A DNA stretch of 64,000 nt from a virus (Duplodnaviria > Caudoviricetes), in the IMG/VR virus record IMGVR_UViG_3300037851_000671, positions 128,001 through 192,000 of that record. The stretch is one strand, 5' to 3'. The notes below the pieces were generated by a model. It was not told the DNA's origin. It ran no database searches and was given only the letters and a program-made list of their open reading frames with translations. This document shows positions 37,414 to 55,385 of this stretch, one piece after another. Within the stretch, counting starts at the first letter, position 1; each line of letters begins with the position of its first letter. A program made the translations under genes and the position numbers.

Positions 37414-37484
37414 GACAGCGAAAAAAAAGATCCGACCTTTTATTTGGTTTTGAATTCGAGATGAAAGATCGGTTGCGCGCTGTC
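37414..37484 (-). ncRNA. Structured RNA E1 (shared terminal motif, no T-arm)
   Basis: GACAGCG/CGCTGTC stem, CGCAA opposite AUC-U8, inner CCGATCTTT/AAAGGTCGG. Confidence 0.65.
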
Positions 37485-37487
37485 TAG

Positions 37488-37560
37488 TCGGGCGGGAGGG
37501 ATTCGAACCCCCAACTATTCGCTTATGAGGCGACTTTTCTAACCGTTGAAATACCACCCG
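37488..37560 (-). tRNA. tRNA-Met or tRNA-Ile2 (anticodon CAU)
   Basis: CGGGTGG/CCGCCCG acceptor, CT-CAT-AA loop, GGGGG-TTCGAAT-CCCTC; lacks initiator features. Confidence 0.88.
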
Positions 37561-37564
37561 AAAC

Positions 37565-37681
37565 GGCAACGAAATTATGTAGACAATAGGCCGGCTTTTT
37601 ACACCGTTTCCAAAGCCTCCGATGGATTCGAACCACCTAGCGCCAATTGATGATAGATGAAATGTCTACGAGCGCGTTGCC
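37565..37681 (-). ncRNA. Y RNA-like element E2
   Basis: GGCAACG/CGTTGCC and GTAGACA/TGTCTAC stems enclosing a T-arm GGTGG-TTCGAAT-CCATC. Confidence 0.75.
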
Positions 37682-37691
37682 AGAAATTAAA

Positions 37692-37826
37692 GAGTAACGA
37701 AAATTGCAGGACCACTGTTTTTTGTGCTACAATTACAACACATCCAGCCTTTCGACCGGAGCTGGGATTCGAACCCAGACCTCTTAATTCTCAATTTAGG
37801 ATGAATGATCCCACTGCGCGTTACTC
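37692..37826 (-). ncRNA. YrlA-like Y RNA E3 (circularly permuted tRNA mimic)
   Basis: GAGTAACG/CGTTACTC stem; then T-arm CTGGG-TTCGAAT-CCCAG, closed acceptor-like hairpin TCCGG/CTGGA, D-arm-like GTGTT-GTAATTGT-AGCAC. Confidence 0.8.
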
Positions 37827-38185: not shown

Positions 38186-38894
38186 TCTTTTCTTAGAGAG
38201 ACTTGCAGAGGGCTTGGATTCAACATCAAAGCTTACTCATGCTTTATTGTCTGAGATCAGAGATTCTGAAGCGGATTTTGCCTCCATCAAAACCGAGCTG
38301 TCAATACTAAGAGAGAACGTTAAAGGACTGTCAGAGATTGTCAGGGAAGGTAATGGAGCCACATCTATTCTCACACGTATTGCGCTTATTGAGGCGCGAA
38401 TACAGAACATTGAGAAGTGGATGGAAACCCACATCGATCTTCATCAGGAGGAAAACGCTGACGTGAGCAAGGCTCAGGAACAGCTGAAAGACCTCGATAA
38501 GAAGATCGCCGCGTTAACTTCAGTTGTCAATGAACTAAAATCTCACGCCGATGATATTGAGAAGAAGAGGCGCGAGAGTATAGACCGCGAGCTAGAGCTT
38601 CAGCACGAGGACAAGAAGAGCAAGATAGGGGTAGCTGCCGAAAGACAGCAGACCATTATCAAAGTCCTTGGTGCCCTGTTGTTGGCCGTGCTTGGCGCTG
38701 CTGGTGGCTATTTAGCGAATTCTTGTCATGGGACCGCCGGAGCGGCGCAGCCAAGGAGCGTTATTGTTGCCCCCTCGGCTGCCCCTATCCTAGCTCAACC
38801 GGCCGAGCCGATCAAGGAGAATCTGACTCCTCAACCGCCGTCACAGCCGCTTCTTCAGCCTTCGGTTTCTGCTGTTGCAAAACGAACTCGTTGA
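38160..38894 (+). CDS. Coiled-coil protein with C-terminal transmembrane helix and Pro-rich tail
   Basis: IIKVLGALLLAVLGAAGGYL hydrophobic segment. Confidence 0.75.
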   Translation: MATSKTTNDLFLERLAEGLDSTSKLTHALLSEIRDSEADFASIKTELSILRENVKGLSEIVREGNGATSILTRIALIEARIQNIEKWMETHIDLHQEENADVSKAQEQLKDLDKKIAALTSVVNELKSHADDIEKKRRESIDRELELQHEDKKSKIGVAAERQQTIIKVLGALLLAVLGAAGGYLANSCHGTAGAAQPRSVIVAPSAAPILAQPAEPIKENLTPQPPSQPLLQPSVSAVAKRTR

Positions 38895-40458
38895 GATCAA
38901 AATCCCTGATCGCCTTGACAATGTTGATACCAACATACTCAAGGTTCTTGAACAGTGCCGGTGTCATAGTCTGATACACGGTGACACTACGATCACCGAA
39001 ATCAGCGCTGTGCCACTGGTAGTTGCTGGCATTGATAACCCAAAGCTCTGCCTCTGGGTTGACCTTCTTGCGATACTCAGCCCAAGCCCTTGTCAAAGGA
39101 GTGCCAGCGTTCTGCTGCTCATCAGTGATCAAAACCATCAAATCAAGCTTACGCTTGCTGTTGGTTGCGTTCTCGATTGCCAGAGAAACCGTAGTTCCAC
39201 CGGCAACCCTGAGAGCCAACAGATTCTTAACCTGATTCTTGCGATTCAGGCCAGTGATCCTTGGGCACATACCGCTAGCGTAGCCGTAACGACCTCCGTG
39301 ACCCTCCTCATACAAGGCGTTATCAAAAGTTGTGAACCAAAGGTTTGTAGCCTTTAGGAATGGCACTGCCAACAGACCAGCAGTCTGAAGAGGCTCCCCG
39401 TTCATAGAACCAGAGATATCAACAGACACACCAACTCTCTTACCTTCAATGGTAGGCATTGGTACGTCCAATGTTGCAACCATTGCATCGATAAGAATGT
39501 CCTTGACCTTTTCGTGCTTGGCGAAAATGTATGGCTTTGCAAAGTCAAGCGGAAGAGAGCGGCCATTCTGAACCTCTCCCATCTTTAGCTTGAGCGCGGT
39601 CAGTCCATCCGTGGTGTCGAAGACATTGCGCTCTTCGAGAGAACGGATGTTGAGCAACAGAGCTGTCAAACCCATCTGAGTCATCGAGGCCATTGCAAGA
39701 GGACCCTTGAGTCCCGCAAAACCCTTAACAACATCCCATGGGATTTCATTTTCCAGCATCATATCAGCGATCTTCTTTGGATCACTGAGCTTCTTCATCA
39801 TCTCAACAGCAACCTGCTTGGAACCGGTTGCCTCGGCCTTACGACCGTCCAAGACATACAGAATGACGTTTGCACGACCGTCTGTATAACGTGGGTGAAC
39901 CAAACGAACGAGCTGATTCAAAGCAGTTGGATACTTGAGCGTGAAGTTTTCAAGCTTCTTATATCCCCACTTCTCCATTGCCGCGCGCACCCACTTCTGA
40001 GCACGCGAACCAAAACCACGACCCAACTGCTTGCTCTTGCACAGCTCCACGAACTGGATCAATTGACCAGGGTGGAATGTGCTAAGCAATGCAATAGCTG
40101 CCTGCTTATTTACAGGAGAATCCAAGAACTGCTCGTTTGCAGATCCGGCAATGGCAGCAAGAGCTACCTTAACCATACCTTTCATATGGCTATTGCGGGC
40201 AAAGCAAGCCGCCTTGAGCAGGTACTCAGGGTCCAGCTTCGCGCGGTCAATGAGCAACGGCAGAGCTTCTTTTGCCGCGTCATCAACAGAGCGATAAAAC
40301 TGGTTCTTAAGAATACCAGTCAAAAGAACACGAGCAACCGAATCTTCAGGAAGCTCATTCTTGGACAGATATTCCGTCTTGGTCACAACCTTCTCAGGCT
40401 GACCCAACAGAGCCTTAACAAAAGAAGTGGACTTAACCTTGTTTGTTGTCTTATTCAT
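38812..40458 (-). CDS. TROVE + vWA protein (Ro60/Rsr orthologue)
   Basis: NQFY...DPEYLLKAACFAR HEAT-like TROVE region; MIDAS VDISGSM and LITDEQ. Confidence 0.88.
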   Translation of the reverse strand: MNKTTNKVKSTSFVKALLGQPEKVVTKTEYLSKNELPEDSVARVLLTGILKNQFYRSVDDAAKEALPLLIDRAKLDPEYLLKAACFARNSHMKGMVKVALAAIAGSANEQFLDSPVNKQAAIALLSTFHPGQLIQFVELCKSKQLGRGFGSRAQKWVRAAMEKWGYKKLENFTLKYPTALNQLVRLVHPRYTDGRANVILYVLDGRKAEATGSKQVAVEMMKKLSDPKKIADMMLENEIPWDVVKGFAGLKGPLAMASMTQMGLTALLLNIRSLEERNVFDTTDGLTALKLKMGEVQNGRSLPLDFAKPYIFAKHEKVKDILIDAMVATLDVPMPTIEGKRVGVSVDISGSMNGEPLQTAGLLAVPFLKATNLWFTTFDNALYEEGHGGRYGYASGMCPRITGLNRKNQVKNLLALRVAGGTTVSLAIENATNSKRKLDLMVLITDEQQNAGTPLTRAWAEYRKKVNPEAELWVINASNYQWHSADFGDRSVTVYQTMTPALFKNLEYVGINIVKAIRDFDLNEFVLQQQKPKAEEAAVTAVEESDSP

Positions 40459-40478
40459 GGTGAATTTCTCCTATAAAC

Positions 40479-40637
40479 GCGCCCTGATAAACAGAGCGAA
40501 ATGAGCCGTTTGCAATCGCCCAACGGCGACGGATTGCTCGCAAACTCTGAAATGGTCACAGCCACTGGAATCAAACCAGTGTCGGTAAACCCTAGCCATT
40601 AACAATAGGTAAATCTATTGTTAAATCAGGCACTGTG
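40479..40637 (-). ncRNA. Structured TROVE leader containing a CCA-ending tRNA-like element (40553-40637)
   Basis: CACAG../..GGCTGTG-ACCA, T-arm ACTGG-TTTGATT-CCAGT, 10-bp hairpin TTAACAATAG/CTATTGTTAA; ends GTGCCTGAT/ATCAGGGCGC can pair. Confidence 0.7.
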
Positions 40638-40645
40638 TGTATATC

Positions 40646-40651
40646 GAATAT
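40646..40651 (-). promoter_or_regulatory. ATATTC candidate promoter for TROVE leader
   Basis: 8 nt before the first base of the tRNA-like element. Confidence 0.5.
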
Positions 40652-40659
40652 GCAGTCGA

Positions 40660-40968
40660 TTACTTGCGTTTTTGACTCTTTGACTTGGACTGTTTAGCCC
40701 TTGCCTTCATTGAAGAGTCTTTATCTTTGGCCACATTTCCCTTCGGGGTAGCTCCCTTGGGAGGAGTGGGGCGCTGCATTTCTAATCTTGGAGTGTTATC
40801 CCCACCGAGCCCGAGCATAGCTGGAACCACGGACGGAGGCAAGCCATTTTCCTTCGCCTTGCGCCTTGCGGCCTTGCGCTTGTTTCTGGCTTGGCGGCGC
40901 TTGGTTTGCTGCGCCTCCAATTCAGCAGAAGCTTCACGTATCAACTGATCTACAAGTACGTTGCTCAT
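40660..40968 (-). CDS. Basic hypothetical protein
   Basis: 102 aa, Arg/Lys-rich, GAGG RBS. Confidence 0.7.
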   Translation of the reverse strand: MSNVLVDQLIREASAELEAQQTKRRQARNKRKAARRKAKENGLPPSVVPAMLGLGGDNTPRLEMQRPTPPKGATPKGNVAKDKDSSMKARAKQSKSKSQKRK

Positions 40969-41008
40969 CTTACCTCAACATTCAATTCTGTAGTATGCCC
41001 ATAACGAT

Positions 41009-41671
41009 TCAAAAATCGTCCATCTGATCTGCGAATTTCGTAATTAGGTTTGACAGGGTATGAGGCTCACGTTTAATGAGTGCTACATATTCTGTTTTAG
41101 AGTTCACAAGCCAGTTCACAAGATCTACTGTGTTTATCGCATCAATCTCAGCAGAGTGCGCCCCAATCTTTGGAGTTATTCCAATACCAATCAGGAAGTT
41201 ATTGAGACCAAACTTTACCTTTGGCTCTCCTTGAGCTGCTGCAATTTTTTCAGCAAGTCCATGTTTCTTGACAGCTAATTGTGCGTACTGTTTTGTACAC
41301 AACCAAAGGTCTGCCGGAAATTCTTTGTCACATGACTTCCAGGCCGCGTGACAGAACTTCCTATCAAAAGGTGCGTTGTGAGCGTAGATACATCTATGCG
41401 CTCTGGTTTTGCCATCCTCTTCAAAAAAGGCATCGATTATGTCAATGGCCTCTTTCAATGGGATGCCAACATCAAGGTCATCGACAATTTTACCCTGTAT
41501 TTCGAGGGCTTGTGGACTTGCCCGCTCAGGATTATCAACCTTTATGTCTACTGATAGCTGCTTTCCTGTAGAAAGTCTTATGACAGAGAATTGGTTAATT
41601 TGATGCCATTCACATTTTAGACCAGTTGTTTCAGTGTCTATAATGTAGTATTCTATATCATTCGCGGCCAT
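41009..41671 (-). CDS. DEDDh 3'-5' exonuclease (DnaQ-like)
   Basis: DTETTG, AHNAPFD, AHSAEID. Confidence 0.9.
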   Translation of the reverse strand: MAANDIEYYIIDTETTGLKCEWHQINQFSVIRLSTGKQLSVDIKVDNPERASPQALEIQGKIVDDLDVGIPLKEAIDIIDAFFEEDGKTRAHRCIYAHNAPFDRKFCHAAWKSCDKEFPADLWLCTKQYAQLAVKKHGLAEKIAAAQGEPKVKFGLNNFLIGIGITPKIGAHSAEIDAINTVDLVNWLVNSKTEYVALIKREPHTLSNLITKFADQMDDF

Positions 41672-42379: not shown

Positions 42380-43338
42380 TTTGCACCGTCCACCGAAGGA
42401 ATAAACTGTTGGGCAAGGTCAGCAAAATACTCTGGTGTCTTGGCTGTGCTCATGTCCAACTTGAACTTTGGTTTTTCTATACTGTTGTAAATCTTTTCTC
42501 TGAACTCGTCTTGTTCACGTTTACCAAGAACAGGCAAATCAACATTACTAGGCCTATTTTGCTCAAGCTCAAATATCATAGTTTGAAGAATTCTCATTTC
42601 TTGATAAGAGAATGTACGGGCACAGTAAGCCTGATCCAGCCATCCTTCAAACGCCATTGGAAAACAAATCTTAACCATGGCCGCCATCACATTGGCAAAC
42701 TCACGTATCTCCCATTGCGCATGAGAATCGGCACGCAAACCCAACATGTGCAAAAGGTTATGAAGGTCCATCTTCCAATACCACTCAGTATAGGTCGAAA
42801 GAGGAAGATCAATCCTGGCAAGTTCCCTAGCTACTCCACCCTCTATAGCTAAAGAGTACATATCGGAAACTTCCTTGCGGACGTAAATTGAATCTTCATA
42901 GAAATCGTTTATGACATCGTTGCCCAACTCACCATCACGCCCTTGTTTATTACTCTTGCTTTGAGCTTTCAGATTCTCTACCTGGGGTGTATAGAACTGA
43001 AGTGGCATTACAGAATAACGCCCAGAGTATTCATTCAAGCTTGCTGTTCTATGACGCACAAGCTGTCTTGCAACAAAGATAGGAAGCCTCATGTGGAATT
43101 TCATTTCCACTTGCTCAAGAGGAGATGTGTGACGGTGTCTAATCAAGTATCTGATGAGTTTTTCATCATCACTTGTTGTTTTGGTTCCGGCTCCGTAACT
43201 GCAACGAGCCGCCTGAGCAATGGCAGCATCATTGCCGCAATAATCCAGAAGAGCGCAAAAACCGTAATCTAATACTGGAAAGTATTTGTTTAGTAAACTT
43301 TCTGCTCCTGGGGAGATTGGGCGCAAAGATTCACACAT
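42376..43338 (-). CDS. thyX: Flavin-dependent thymidylate synthase
   Basis: RHRHTSPLE, RQLVRHRTASLNEYSGRY, ARELAR, HAQWEIR. Confidence 0.95.
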   Translation of the reverse strand: MCESLRPISPGAESLLNKYFPVLDYGFCALLDYCGNDAAIAQAARCSYGAGTKTTSDDEKLIRYLIRHRHTSPLEQVEMKFHMRLPIFVARQLVRHRTASLNEYSGRYSVMPLQFYTPQVENLKAQSKSNKQGRDGELGNDVINDFYEDSIYVRKEVSDMYSLAIEGGVARELARIDLPLSTYTEWYWKMDLHNLLHMLGLRADSHAQWEIREFANVMAAMVKICFPMAFEGWLDQAYCARTFSYQEMRILQTMIFELEQNRPSNVDLPVLGKREQDEFREKIYNSIEKPKFKLDMSTAKTPEYFADLAQQFIPSVDGAK

Positions 43339-44098
43339 GATTCCACGTCCTTCCATATTTGATATCAGAAATTGTACTTGGTGATACGTTGTATTTTTTA
43401 GCTAGCATAGGGACCTTGTTTTGTATATCTTGTTTTATAGACAAGACAATGTCTTCGTTTAGTTTTGCGTTGTGGTGTTTTGAGCCATTTCGCGAGAATG
43501 GTTTTATGTGTAGCGTATCAGTGATATGAGTCCAAGAAACTCTTCCAATAATTGAGTGTACTACGGAAATGGTACACCCAATTTTTTTTGATATGTTTTT
43601 TGCGTTTTGCTCACAGTTCCACATATTAACAATTTCTACCACATCATCATCTTTAACAGAAGCGCAATGATGCTTTTCTCCAGTTTGTGATAGTCCAATT
43701 TTGTTTTTTGTAGCCTGTGATAATTTTCTACCAAGATATCGTTTAGATTGCAGATCTCTTCTTTTTTGTGTCCATGGTATACAATTTGGTGTGTTGGCTT
43801 TTTTGCTTGAGTTGAATCCGATTTTGTTATCGTATACTTTAAGGTGGTCTATCCAATACTGCTCCCTATCAATTAGGTATTTTGGATCGTTTACCACCTC
43901 TACTTTCTCAAAAGTGAAAGAAGCCTCACCATATTTATTCCATGCTCTTTGAAGCCGTATGCAATGATGTTTGTTTTGTCGTAAACACCTTCTATGCTCA
44001 TACCATCGTTTATACATGTTTTTAGAAGAGCCAATGTATATTTTACCATTGGATGAACATGTGATCCTGTACACCGCTACAACTCTTGAATTTGCCAT
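43331..44098 (-). mobile_element. GIY-YIG homing endonuclease with NUMOD3 and HTH-like domains
   Basis: AVYRIT...KIYIGSS...RW..H; true start MANSR at 44098. Confidence 0.88.
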
Positions 44099-44110
44099 AT
44101 ACCTATGGCA

Positions 44111-44116
44111 AAATAT
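44111..44116 (-). promoter_or_regulatory. ATATTT, one-mismatch copy of candidate late promoter
   Basis: Exactly 12 nt before ATG 44098. Confidence 0.45.
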
Positions 44117-44120
44117 TACA

Positions 44121-44243
44121 TCAATCAACAAGGCTTACAAATCCATAATCCAATACAGGGAAGTACAGACCAAACAAAGGCTCTGCAAGTTCGTTCTTAC
44201 GGAATGTTTTAGCTCTAACATTTGCTATTTCTAACTCAGTCAT
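44121..44243 (-). pseudogene. Orphan 5' stub of thyX
   Basis: MTELE...LYFPVLDYGFVSLVD* mirrors KYFPVLDYGFCALLDY of intact ThyX; own GGAG RBS. Confidence 0.85.
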
Positions 44244-55299: not shown

Positions 55300-55385
55300 C
55301 GGAAGAAGAAGGAGTCAAACCTTCAAGACCTTTTGGGTTCGCCGGAGTTCGAAGCCGGTGCCATCATCTATTGGCTTGTTCTTCC
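55300..55385 (-). tRNA. tRNA-Ser(CGA), non-canonical
   Basis: GGAAGAA/TTCTTCC, CCGG(C)-TTCGAAC-(T)CCGG, T-loop TTTGACT, C8, no D-loop GG. Confidence 0.75.

What the first reader, a model, noticed from the sequence alone, without database searches (positions are those of the whole stretch)
40479..40637. TROVE leader holds a CCA-ending tRNA-like element with a mutually exclusive fold next to the RBS
Seen: CACAG(TG)CC pairs with GGCTGTG followed by ACCA, with T-arm ACTGG-TTTGATT-CCAGT and a 10-bp AU hairpin in place of D and anticodon arms. Alternatively GTGCCTGAT pairs with ATCAGGGCGC, which ends 6 nt before AGGAG. Between them lies CAGAG...ATTT-CG-CTCTG, resembling the E1-E3 motif. An ATATTC lies 8 nt upstream. 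Inference: an autoregulatory switch or a processable Y/tRNA-like RNA that links Ro60 synthesis to tRNA-processing status.
Basis: partly seen in the sequence, partly recalled or inferred. Interest (0 to 1): 0.75.

Follow-up and report, generated by a model that had tools for sequence, protein, structure and literature searches.

The report
tRNA-like insert in phage Ro60 leader
The 200-base stretch in front of a giant phage's Ro60 gene holds a real but lineage-specific tRNA-derived hairpin module ending in CCA, plus a small hairpin beside the ribosome-binding site that is conserved across related phages and is the likelier control element.

Summary
The element lies on the minus strand, in the 201-nt spacer between a small Arg-rich protein gene and a Ro60 (TROVE) gene of a 219-kb freshwater phage.

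The T-arm, 7-nt acceptor strand, A and CCA are more than chance: shuffles give 0.5 such hits per genome, and the same T-arm occurs in 15 genuine phage tRNAs. There is no D arm or anticodon arm, and the tRNA, tmRNA and YrlA models all miss it. No relative with available DNA (16 distinct close leaders) has this module; all their leaders are shorter (about 45-200 nt), so it is a lineage-specific insert.

It covaries in 13 leaders, and a model of it found two held-out leaders and nothing else. Its flanks match, in permuted order, the "handle" of this phage's Y-like RNAs. An earlier follow-up in this scan also noted this.

Best reading: a conserved operator or processing hairpin, plus an inserted tRNA-like module that may punctuate the transcript. 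Function is untested.

The parts
40553..40637 (-). 85-nt tRNA-derived module. It has a 6-bp acceptor stem (CACAGU/GCUGUG) stacked on a 6-bp T-stem, T-loop UUUGAUU, discriminator A and encoded CCA. The D and anticodon arms are replaced by a GCC/GGC-closed 10-bp A/U hairpin.
   Evidence: pair probabilities 0.89-1.0; descriptor against shuffles; identical T-arm in 15 phage tRNAs; z = -3.2. Not called by ARAGORN at default settings or by Rfam tRNA/tmRNA/YrlA models.
40599..40624 (-). Perfect 10-bp A/U hairpin (UUAACAAUAG-AUUUAC-CUAUUGUUAA) inside the tRNA-like module.
   Evidence: pair probabilities 0.6-1.0.
40564..40580 (-). T-arm ACUGG-UUUGAUU-CCAGU, with a G53:C61-type closing pair and U at position 56.
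   Evidence: (P 0.997).
40507..40549 (-). CAGAG followed by an imperfect GC-rich hairpin (GUUUGC..CGCC-GUUG-GGCG..GCAAAC). Function unknown. It is not a true member of the phage's Y-like E family.
40478..40502 (-). Conserved leader hairpin H: AUUU-CGCUCUG-UUUAU-CAGGGCG-CG, 5 nt upstream of the Shine-Dalgarno AGGAG (40472-40468). It has the flank signature of the Y-like RNA handle in permuted order.
   Evidence: P 0.88-0.97; covariation; held-out hits.
38812..40458 (-). Ro60/TROVE gene (548 aa).
   Evidence: In one search the family profile matches D. radiodurans Rsr 2NVO at E 3e-20, Xenopus and human Ro60, and Thermus phage Ro60.
40660..40968 (-). Upstream co-oriented gene for a small protein (102 aa) with an Arg/Lys-rich motif (KRRQARNKRKAARRKAK). 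It is syntenic with Ro60 in relatives.

Best explanation
The spacer is an untranslated, highly structured leader of the phage Ro60 mRNA. It is probably co-transcribed with the two upstream genes (RNase T-like exonuclease and small Arg-rich protein). It has three stable, mutually compatible modules.

1. A lineage-specific, tRNA-derived 85-nt module. It keeps what tRNA-end enzymes read: a 12-bp acceptor/T stack, a T-loop and ACCA. It has lost the D and anticodon arms.
2. A GC-rich hairpin.
3. A 7-bp hairpin flanked by UUU and CG, 5 nt before the Shine-Dalgarno sequence. This is the only part conserved in related phages.

Inferred mechanism:
- The conserved hairpin mimics, in circularly permuted order, the UUUCG/CGCG 'handle' of the phage's own Y-like RNAs. 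It would act as a cis operator for the handle-binding factor, most simply Ro60 itself, whose binding would occlude the adjacent ribosome-binding site (feedback control).
- The inserted tRNA-like module would act as transcript punctuation. RNase P cleavage at its 5' side and trimming to CCA at its 3' side would release an 85-nt tRNA-like RNA and give the Ro60 mRNA a defined 5' end. This is how flanking tRNA genes would define the ends of the Y-like RNAs in this phage's arrays.

Shown: the anatomy, the statistics, the conservation and covariation of the hairpin, and the absence of the tRNA-like part from relatives. Inferred: who binds, the cleavages, and any regulatory effect.
For: tRNA-likeness:
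- The descriptor is specific to tRNAs in this genome, and shuffles give 0.5 hits per genome.
- The exact T-arm followed by N9-CCA occurs 20 times in IMG/VR, and 15 of these are ARAGORN tRNAs.
- About a third of this phage's 31 tRNAs (11) also encode CCA.

Fold:
- The MFE of -64.3 kcal/mol contains the tRNA-like fold and hairpin H together, with P > 0.88 for every helix.

Hairpin H:
- It is present directly before the SD in 15 Ro60 leaders.
- 92.5% of cells are paired against 76% in shuffles (0/500), and 5 of 7 pairs change on both sides.
- Model R1 hits only Ro60 leaders in 293 kb of loci and in the whole 219-kb genome.
- R1 found two held-out leaders at E 5e-11 and 2e-8.
- A permuted descriptor built from the Y-like RNA handle strings hits 11 of 20 Ro60 leaders within 25 nt of the start. 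It hits one other place in 229 kb, which is also in a Ro60 leader.

Context:
- Y-like RNAs with the handle lie on the Ro60 strand in the window and in 9 relatives.
- No sigma-70-like promoter or terminator lies in the spacer.
- In relatives Ro60 sits beside an RNase T-like exonuclease and a CCA-adding enzyme. The own genome also has a CCA-adding enzyme gene.
- Precedent: M. smegmatis YrlA and YrlB lie upstream of rsr, are cut from one precursor, and YrlA is cleaved by RNase P and receives CCA (PMC4201824).
Against: - No RNA data exist for this phage, so no transcript ends are known.
- The tRNA-like module has no homologue upstream of any related Ro60 gene, so selection on it cannot be tested. 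It could be a neutral relic.
- The Rfam YrlA alignment places the YrlA terminal stem and its Ro-binding motif on the inner helix plus UUCAUC of the phage's Y-like RNAs, not on the outer handle. The handle, and hence hairpin H, may therefore bind something other than Ro60, or be a processing site.
- Several phages that have handle-bearing RNAs lack H before Ro60 (L005, L006, L009, L011, L012).
- The acceptor stem has 6 rather than 7 pairs, and position 56 is U.
Confidence: 0.45

Rival explanations
1. Relic. The tRNA-like module and the adjoining hairpin are a decaying remnant of a tRNA gene or Y-like RNA cassette that landed in the spacer. Such cassettes are numerous and evidently mobile in these phages. 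Only the conserved hairpin H matters.
For: - The module is absent from every related leader read.
- There is no D or anticodon arm, and it is sub-threshold for every tRNA, tmRNA and YrlA model.
- CAGAG..UUUCG-CUCUG looks like a degraded E frame.
Against: - All helices are intact and strongly predicted: a perfect 10-bp hairpin, a perfect T-arm, ACCA, and z about -3. A decaying relic would be expected to show mismatches.
- No paralogue among the phage's own tRNAs (at most 14 of 24 identities) and none elsewhere in the genome, so it is not a recent copy.
Confidence: 0.3
2. Trans-acting Y RNA. The module, alone or with the outer stem GUGCCUGAU/AUCA(G)GGCGC, is a YrlB/Yrl-like partner RNA of Ro60. 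It would be processed out of the operon transcript and bound by Ro60.
For: - Y RNAs lie upstream of rsr in M. smegmatis and of Ro60 in Thermus phage phiLo.
- YrlB has only a T-arm.
- The alternative conformer has the order terminal stem - V-like hairpin - T-arm - third stem-loop, as in YrlA.
Against: - RF02553 finds nothing here at E <= 10, although it finds two of the phage's other RNAs.
- No GNCGAA motif in the spacer.
- No D arm, and 14-18-nt spacers where YrlA has none.
- The Y-type conformer is about 3% of the ensemble and would destroy the conserved hairpin H.
- It lacks the GAUCnUUCAUC of the phage's own Y-like family.
Confidence: 0.15
3. The tRNA-like fold and the long-range stem compete, and tRNA-processing enzymes or Ro60 shift the balance to open or close the RBS.
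For: A coherent second conformer exists 3.2 kcal/mol above the MFE. It re-uses both strands of hairpin H (CUCUG with CAGAG; CAGGGCGC with GUGCCUG).
Against: - The conformer has pair probabilities near 0.03.
- Pairings of that size are expected by chance in 200 nt (my own estimate).
- Relatives have only the local hairpin and no upstream partners, so no switch is conserved.
- After the proposed processing at CCA the competing stem has P = 0.001.
Confidence: 0.07
4. The conserved hairpin is not a Ro60 operator. It is a processing or stability element, or the binding site of the conserved Arg-rich small protein encoded just upstream.
For: - The small protein carries a conserved RKxRNKRKA motif and is always next to Ro60.
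- By the Rfam alignment, the outer handle of the Y-like RNAs lies outside the YrlA-equivalent Ro-binding region.
Against: The hairpin is found only in front of Ro60 and not before other genes. That fits gene-specific feedback better than a general processing signal. There is no direct evidence either way.
Confidence: 0.2

Closest known systems
M. smegmatis YrlA/YrlB (Chen et al. 2014, PMC4201824)
   Same: - tRNA-like RNA encoded upstream of a Ro60 gene on the same strand, with no terminator between them.
- Contains a T-arm.
- YrlA is cut by RNase P and ends in CCA (82 nt, against 85 nt predicted here).
   Different: - Here the tRNA parts are in normal, not permuted, order.
- No D arm and no GNCGAA motif.
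- CCA is encoded rather than added.
- The RF02553 model does not match.
- The module is not conserved in relatives.
Yrl1/Yrl2 of Thermus phage phiLo (PMC12135203)
   Same: Structured RNAs immediately upstream of a phage Ro60 gene.
   Different: Those RNAs have a 5'-3' stem around a bulge with a CGAA motif and were shown to bind the phage Ro60. Here there is no CGAA and no binding data.
The phage's own Y-like 'E' RNAs (window 37414-37826 and the tRNA arrays; earlier scan notes e1-5365531 and e1-5365538)
   Same: Hairpin H shares UUUCG + helix + CGCG with their outer handle. The 3' strand of E1 (UUUUCGCUGUC) and the 5' strand of H (AUUUCGCUCUG) are 8 of 10 identical.
   Different: - H is circularly permuted: the helix is capped by a loop and the flanks are open.
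- H lacks the inner stem and the UUCAUC motif.
- The tRNA-like module lies outside the handle rather than inside it as cargo.
Translational operators that mimic the protein's RNA ligand (E. coli thrS leader mimicking tRNA-Thr; ribosomal-protein operators; MS2 coat-protein hairpin) - from general knowledge
   Same: A small hairpin resembling the protein's normal RNA target sits at the ribosome-binding site of its own gene.
   Different: No binding or repression has been shown here, and the binder is unknown.
tRNA genes co-transcribed with mRNAs and removed by RNase P (e.g. the E. coli tufB operon) and tRNA-punctuated transcripts - from general knowledge
   Same: A tRNA-shaped element upstream of a coding region within one transcript would define RNA ends.
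   Different: This element is not a decoding tRNA, and processing is unproven.

Membership tests
tRNA (Rfam RF00005 / ARAGORN) | Match to the tRNA covariance model or to the ARAGORN default threshold | tested here: not met
   No RF00005 hit at the gathering score or at E <= 10 on 40380-40760. ARAGORN at default settings finds none. Only at 80% of its threshold does it draw a poor 89-nt cloverleaf.
tRNA (Rfam RF00005 / ARAGORN) | T-arm (5 bp, 7-nt loop UUxRA), directly followed by a 7-nt acceptor strand, discriminator and CCA | tested here: met
   The identical T-arm occurs in 15 phage tRNAs.
tRNA (Rfam RF00005 / ARAGORN) | D arm and an anticodon arm with a 7-nt loop | tested here: not met
   The region folds into one 10-bp hairpin with a 6-nt loop.
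YrlA (Rfam RF02553) | Match to the covariance model | tested here: not met
   No hit at the leader at E <= 10. Two other RNAs of the genome score 42.5 and 37.8 bits, below the gathering score of 69.
YrlA (Rfam RF02553) | GNCGAA(N)G motif near the 5' end | tested here: not met
   No GNCGAA on the minus strand in 40459-40659.
YrlA (Rfam RF02553) | Permuted order V - T - closed acceptor stem - D, between terminal strands | tested here: not met
   The acceptor partner lies upstream (normal order), there is no D arm, and there is no closed stem abutting the T-arm.
YrlA (Rfam RF02553) | Located within 4 kb of Ro60 on the same strand | tested here: met
   It lies 95 nt upstream of the Ro60 start on the same strand.
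Y-like 'E' RNA family of this phage clade | Outer stem-CG-CGN ... UUU-CG-outer stem | tested here: inconclusive
   CAGAG-UUUG-CG-AGC ... AUUU-CG-CUCUG has the 3' half. On the 5' half there is a 4-nt insert and AGC in place of CGC.
Y-like 'E' RNA family of this phage clade | Inner stem ..GAUC/GGUC.. followed by the invariant UUCAUC | tested here: not met
   Present in all 25 family members printed (11; 12 from relatives plus 2 of those again). Absent from the leader.
   Window 40502-40478. It scores 29.2 bits (E 1.7e-6), but it is part of the training set. Held-out L125 and L126 match.
Phage attP core (3' half of a host tRNA gene) | Identity to the 3' end of a bacterial tRNA gene, with an integrase nearby | tested here: not met
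   No exact match of the 24-nt T-arm/acceptor string in 185,579 species genomes. No integrase among the neighbouring genes.

The most novel reading that the evidence does not exclude
Phage Ro60 controls its own translation by binding a circularly permuted copy of its Y-RNA handle placed against the ribosome-binding site. In this one lineage the same leader has captured a tRNA-shaped module, so that host tRNA-end enzymes (RNase P, 3' trimming, CCA repair) cut the Ro60 mRNA free and release an extra CCA-ending tRNA mimic. This would couple Ro60 expression to the cell's tRNA-processing capacity.
Probability: 0.2. Interest if true: 0.7.

Novelty: new variant of a known kind. Interest (0 to 1): 0.45.

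Why it matters
- Ro60 proteins and their Y RNAs are an RNA quality-control system found from bacteria to humans, but how Ro60 levels are set is not known. I found no paper describing Ro60 feedback through its own leader.
- A conserved, covarying hairpin that resembles the partner RNAs and sits against the ribosome-binding site gives a directly testable operator.
- The tRNA-like insert shows that tRNA-derived modules in these giant phages are not confined to tRNA arrays and can be recruited into mRNA leaders.
- If the insert is only a relic, the finding still marks the conserved hairpin as the part worth testing.

Tried and rejected
- DNA similarity of the 202-nt leader to 91 related loci (blastn-short, nhmmer): none. 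To the rest of the genome: only an 18-nt chance match in a coding region.
- Megablast of the locus against GenBank phages: no match.
- Rfam at gathering score and at E <= 10: nothing at the leader.
- YrlA model on the whole genome: nothing at the leader.
- ARAGORN in mitochondrial and tmRNA modes: nothing.
- Sigma-70 promoter and intrinsic terminator scan of 40300-41100: none. The phage's own promoters are unknown.
- Public runs: no RNA holder listed. Laying contigs of two DNA runs showed the source assembly and low-depth fragments of a roughly 97%-identical phage inside the Ro60 ORF only. The leader was not covered.
- A 42-codon ORF (40599-40471) spans the leader. It has no SD and no homologue in the 5.8-billion-protein set, so I treated it as non-coding.
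- attP idea: no bacterial or viral genome holds the T-arm/acceptor string.
- Origin from one of the phage's own 31 tRNAs: best match is 14 of 24 identities.
- Contigs of the two relatives with longer leaders (P0004 with 162 nt, P0018 with 95 nt) and of P0003 and P0007 could not be read because no DNA was served.
- A second handle-like hairpin inside the Ro60 ORF is not conserved in relatives. I took it as chance.

Full report
**Where and what**

The finding lies on the minus strand. A 548-aa ORF (38812-40458) is a Ro60 orthologue. It hits Pfam vWA_Ro60. About 90 metagenomic homologues are known, some of which their source annotation names as 60-kDa SS-A/Ro. A profile of 36 of them matches D. 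radiodurans Rsr (2NVO) at E 3e-20 over nearly its full length, and also Xenopus, human and Thermus-phage Ro60.

The genome is a single 218,772-bp phage contig with 31 tRNA genes. Upstream on the same strand lie an RNase T-like exonuclease gene (41009-41671) and a 102-aa Arg/Lys-rich protein gene (40660-40968). The element occupies the 201-nt spacer 40459-40659.

**Observation**

Exact coordinates are listed under parts.

The minimum-free-energy fold of the leader (-64.3 kcal/mol) contains three things together:
- a tRNA-like structure: 6-bp acceptor stem, a GCC/GGC-closed 10-bp A/U hairpin, and a 6-bp T-stem with a 7-nt loop, followed by ACCA;
- a GC-rich hairpin;
- a local 7-bp hairpin just before the Shine-Dalgarno sequence.

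All of these have pair probabilities of 0.88-1.0. The 176-nt leader has z = -2.9 and the 85-nt piece z = -3.2 against shuffles.

**Is the tRNA likeness more than chance?**

I scanned for T-arm (5 bp, loop UUNRANN) + 7 nt + N + CCA, with an upstream partner for at least 6 of the 7 acceptor bases.
- The genome gives 13 hits: 10 annotated tRNAs, one tRNA-like cargo of a Y-like RNA, one antisense to a tRNA, and the leader.
- Forty dinucleotide shuffles give 0.5 per genome on both strands, which is about 2e-4 for this spacer.
- The specificity comes from the T-arm and the CCA. By my own estimate, the acceptor pairing alone would be found by chance about three times in four.
- The unusual U at T-loop position 56 is not a defect. 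The exact 15-nt T-arm followed by N9-CCA occurs 20 times in IMG/VR, and 15 of those are ARAGORN-called tRNAs.
- Eleven of the phage's 31 tRNAs also encode CCA.

The rest is not tRNA-like. There is no D arm and no 7-nt anticodon loop. ARAGORN at default settings, Rfam tRNA, tmRNA and YrlA (RF02553) all fail here, even at E <= 10. ARAGORN draws a poor cloverleaf only at 80% of its threshold. The spacer has no GNCGAA motif.

The module has no paralogue in the genome and is not close to any of the phage's tRNAs. Its T-arm/acceptor string matches no bacterial or other viral genome, which argues against an attP core. A 42-codon ORF across it has no SD and no homologue.

**Relatives**

I read the Ro60 leaders of 22 related loci. 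None shows DNA similarity to the tRNA-like part. A T-arm scan found none upstream of Ro60 in any of them. Their leaders are about 45-200 nt (45-120 nt in the roughly 70%-identity clade), against 201 nt here. It is a lineage-specific insertion.

**What is conserved**

The relatives share a small hairpin placed 1-6 nt before the SD, with the form UUU(U)-CG-stem-loop-stem-CG-CG. In L001, for example, it reads UUUU-CGCACC-CCUU-GGUGCG-CG-U-AGGAG.

The evidence for it is as follows.
- In an alignment of 13 leaders, 92.5% of cells pair against 76% in shuffles (0 of 500). Five of seven pairs change on both sides. Slid controls give 19-69%.
- A covariance model of it hits only Ro60 leaders in 293 kb of loci including the whole window, and only this site in the whole genome.
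- The model found the Ro60 starts of two held-out relatives at E 5e-11 and 2e-8.

**Relation to the phage's Y-like RNAs**

Downstream of Ro60 and in the tRNA arrays, the genome has at least 11 minus-strand RNAs with the frame outer stem-CG-CGC ... UUU-CG-outer stem. The same frame occurs on the Ro60 strand in nine relatives. Two of the window genome's copies score 42.5 and 37.8 bits with Rfam YrlA.

The leader hairpin carries the same UUUCG and CGCG strings around a helix, but in circularly permuted order, with the helix capped by a loop. A descriptor made from those handle strings in permuted order hits 11 of 20 Ro60 leaders within 25 nt of the start. It hits one other place in 229 kb, which is also in a Ro60 leader.

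An earlier follow-up in this scan (e1-5365531) had already noted a handle copy before the Ro60 RBS. I found the hairpin independently (before) and tested its conservation here.

One caution applies. The Rfam alignment puts the YrlA terminal stem and its Ro-binding motif on the inner helix and the invariant UUCAUC of these RNAs, not on the outer handle. The protein that reads the handle may therefore not be Ro60.

Forcing GUGCCUGAU/AUCA(G)GGCGC gives a coherent conformer that also pairs CAGAG with CUCUG. It lies 3.2 kcal/mol above the MFE, with pair probabilities near 0.03. It destroys the conserved hairpin and has no counterpart in relatives. After the proposed cut at CCA it falls to P = 0.001.

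CAGAG...AUUU-CG-CUCUG shares only the 3' half with the E frame. It lacks the inner GAUC/GGUC stem and the UUCAUC present in all 25 members examined. I do not count it as a family member.

**Mechanism**

Shown:
- a stable three-module leader;
- a conserved, covarying, Ro60-specific hairpin against the SD;
- a tRNA-derived insert with the features read by RNase P and CCA-end enzymes (12-bp stack, T-loop, ACCA);
- no sigma-70-type promoter or terminator in the spacer;
- a conserved neighbourhood of RNase T-like exonuclease and, in relatives, a CCA-adding enzyme, with a CCA-adding enzyme gene also present in this genome.

Inferred:
- The hairpin is an operator that mimics the Y-like RNA handle and gives feedback on Ro60 translation.
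- The insert is cut out by tRNA-end enzymes and so punctuates the transcript, in the way that tRNA-Met would define the ends of E2 and E1, which abut it.
- Precedents are M. smegmatis YrlA/YrlB (PMC4201824) and Yrl1/2 upstream of Thermus phage Ro60 (PMC12135203).

The main rival is that the insert is a neutral relic.

No RNA holder was listed among public runs, so nothing about expression or ends could be tested.

**Verdict**

The thing is a new variant of a known kind, namely tRNA-like RNA beside Ro60. The conserved hairpin is the more valuable lead, and the scan already holds it from another finding.

Noticed in passing
window 40660-40968 (-); L092:2729-2935; upstream ORFs in L003, L004, L006, L008, L009, L014, L083: A small protein with a conserved Arg/Lys-rich motif (..RKxRNKRKAxRR..) is encoded immediately upstream of Ro60 in this phage and its relatives.
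   Followed up: partly
L092, L094, L095 and the gene tables: Relatives share the order CCA-adding enzyme (PolyA_pol + HD, opposite strand) - small ORFs - RNase T-like exonuclease - small basic protein - Ro60 - two convergent ORFs (about 220-244 aa and about 60 aa). In the window the CCA-adding enzyme gene is elsewhere (genome 900-1283), and ThyX plus a GIY-YIG/NUMOD3 homing endonuclease (43331-44131) sit upstream instead.
   Followed up: partly
window 39982-40009 (-): A second handle-like hairpin (UUCG-CGUGCUCA-GAAG-UGGGUGCG-CGCG, 8 bp) lies inside the Ro60 ORF over the conserved SRxQKWVR codons. The same descriptor finds none at this position in relatives, so it is probably chance.
   Followed up: partly
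L008, L009, L011, L013, L014 (leaders of Ro60 genes 51-63% identical): These more distant leaders lack the R1 hairpin, or carry it far from the SD. They share a GUCGAG motif followed by long hairpins, which may be a different leader structure.
   Followed up: no
L094:2900-2960: The 120-nt Ro60 leader of this relative holds a GC-rich hairpin containing GUCGAAG, which matches the YrlA GNCGAA(N)G motif, upstream of its conserved hairpin.
   Followed up: no
window 37414-37826 (-): The Y-like RNAs E2 and E1 abut tRNA-Met (37487-37560) within 2-3 nt on each side. RNase P and tRNA 3' processing would therefore generate their paired ends.
   Followed up: partly
window 55300-55385 (-): Rfam calls a weak tRNA here (31.3 bits, just over the gathering score) that ARAGORN does not list, next to tRNA-Ser.
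   Followed up: no
window 39075-39742: A second freshwater metagenome (run X2, 2024) holds low-depth contigs about 97% identical to the Ro60 ORF, so a close relative of this phage exists elsewhere.
   Followed up: partly
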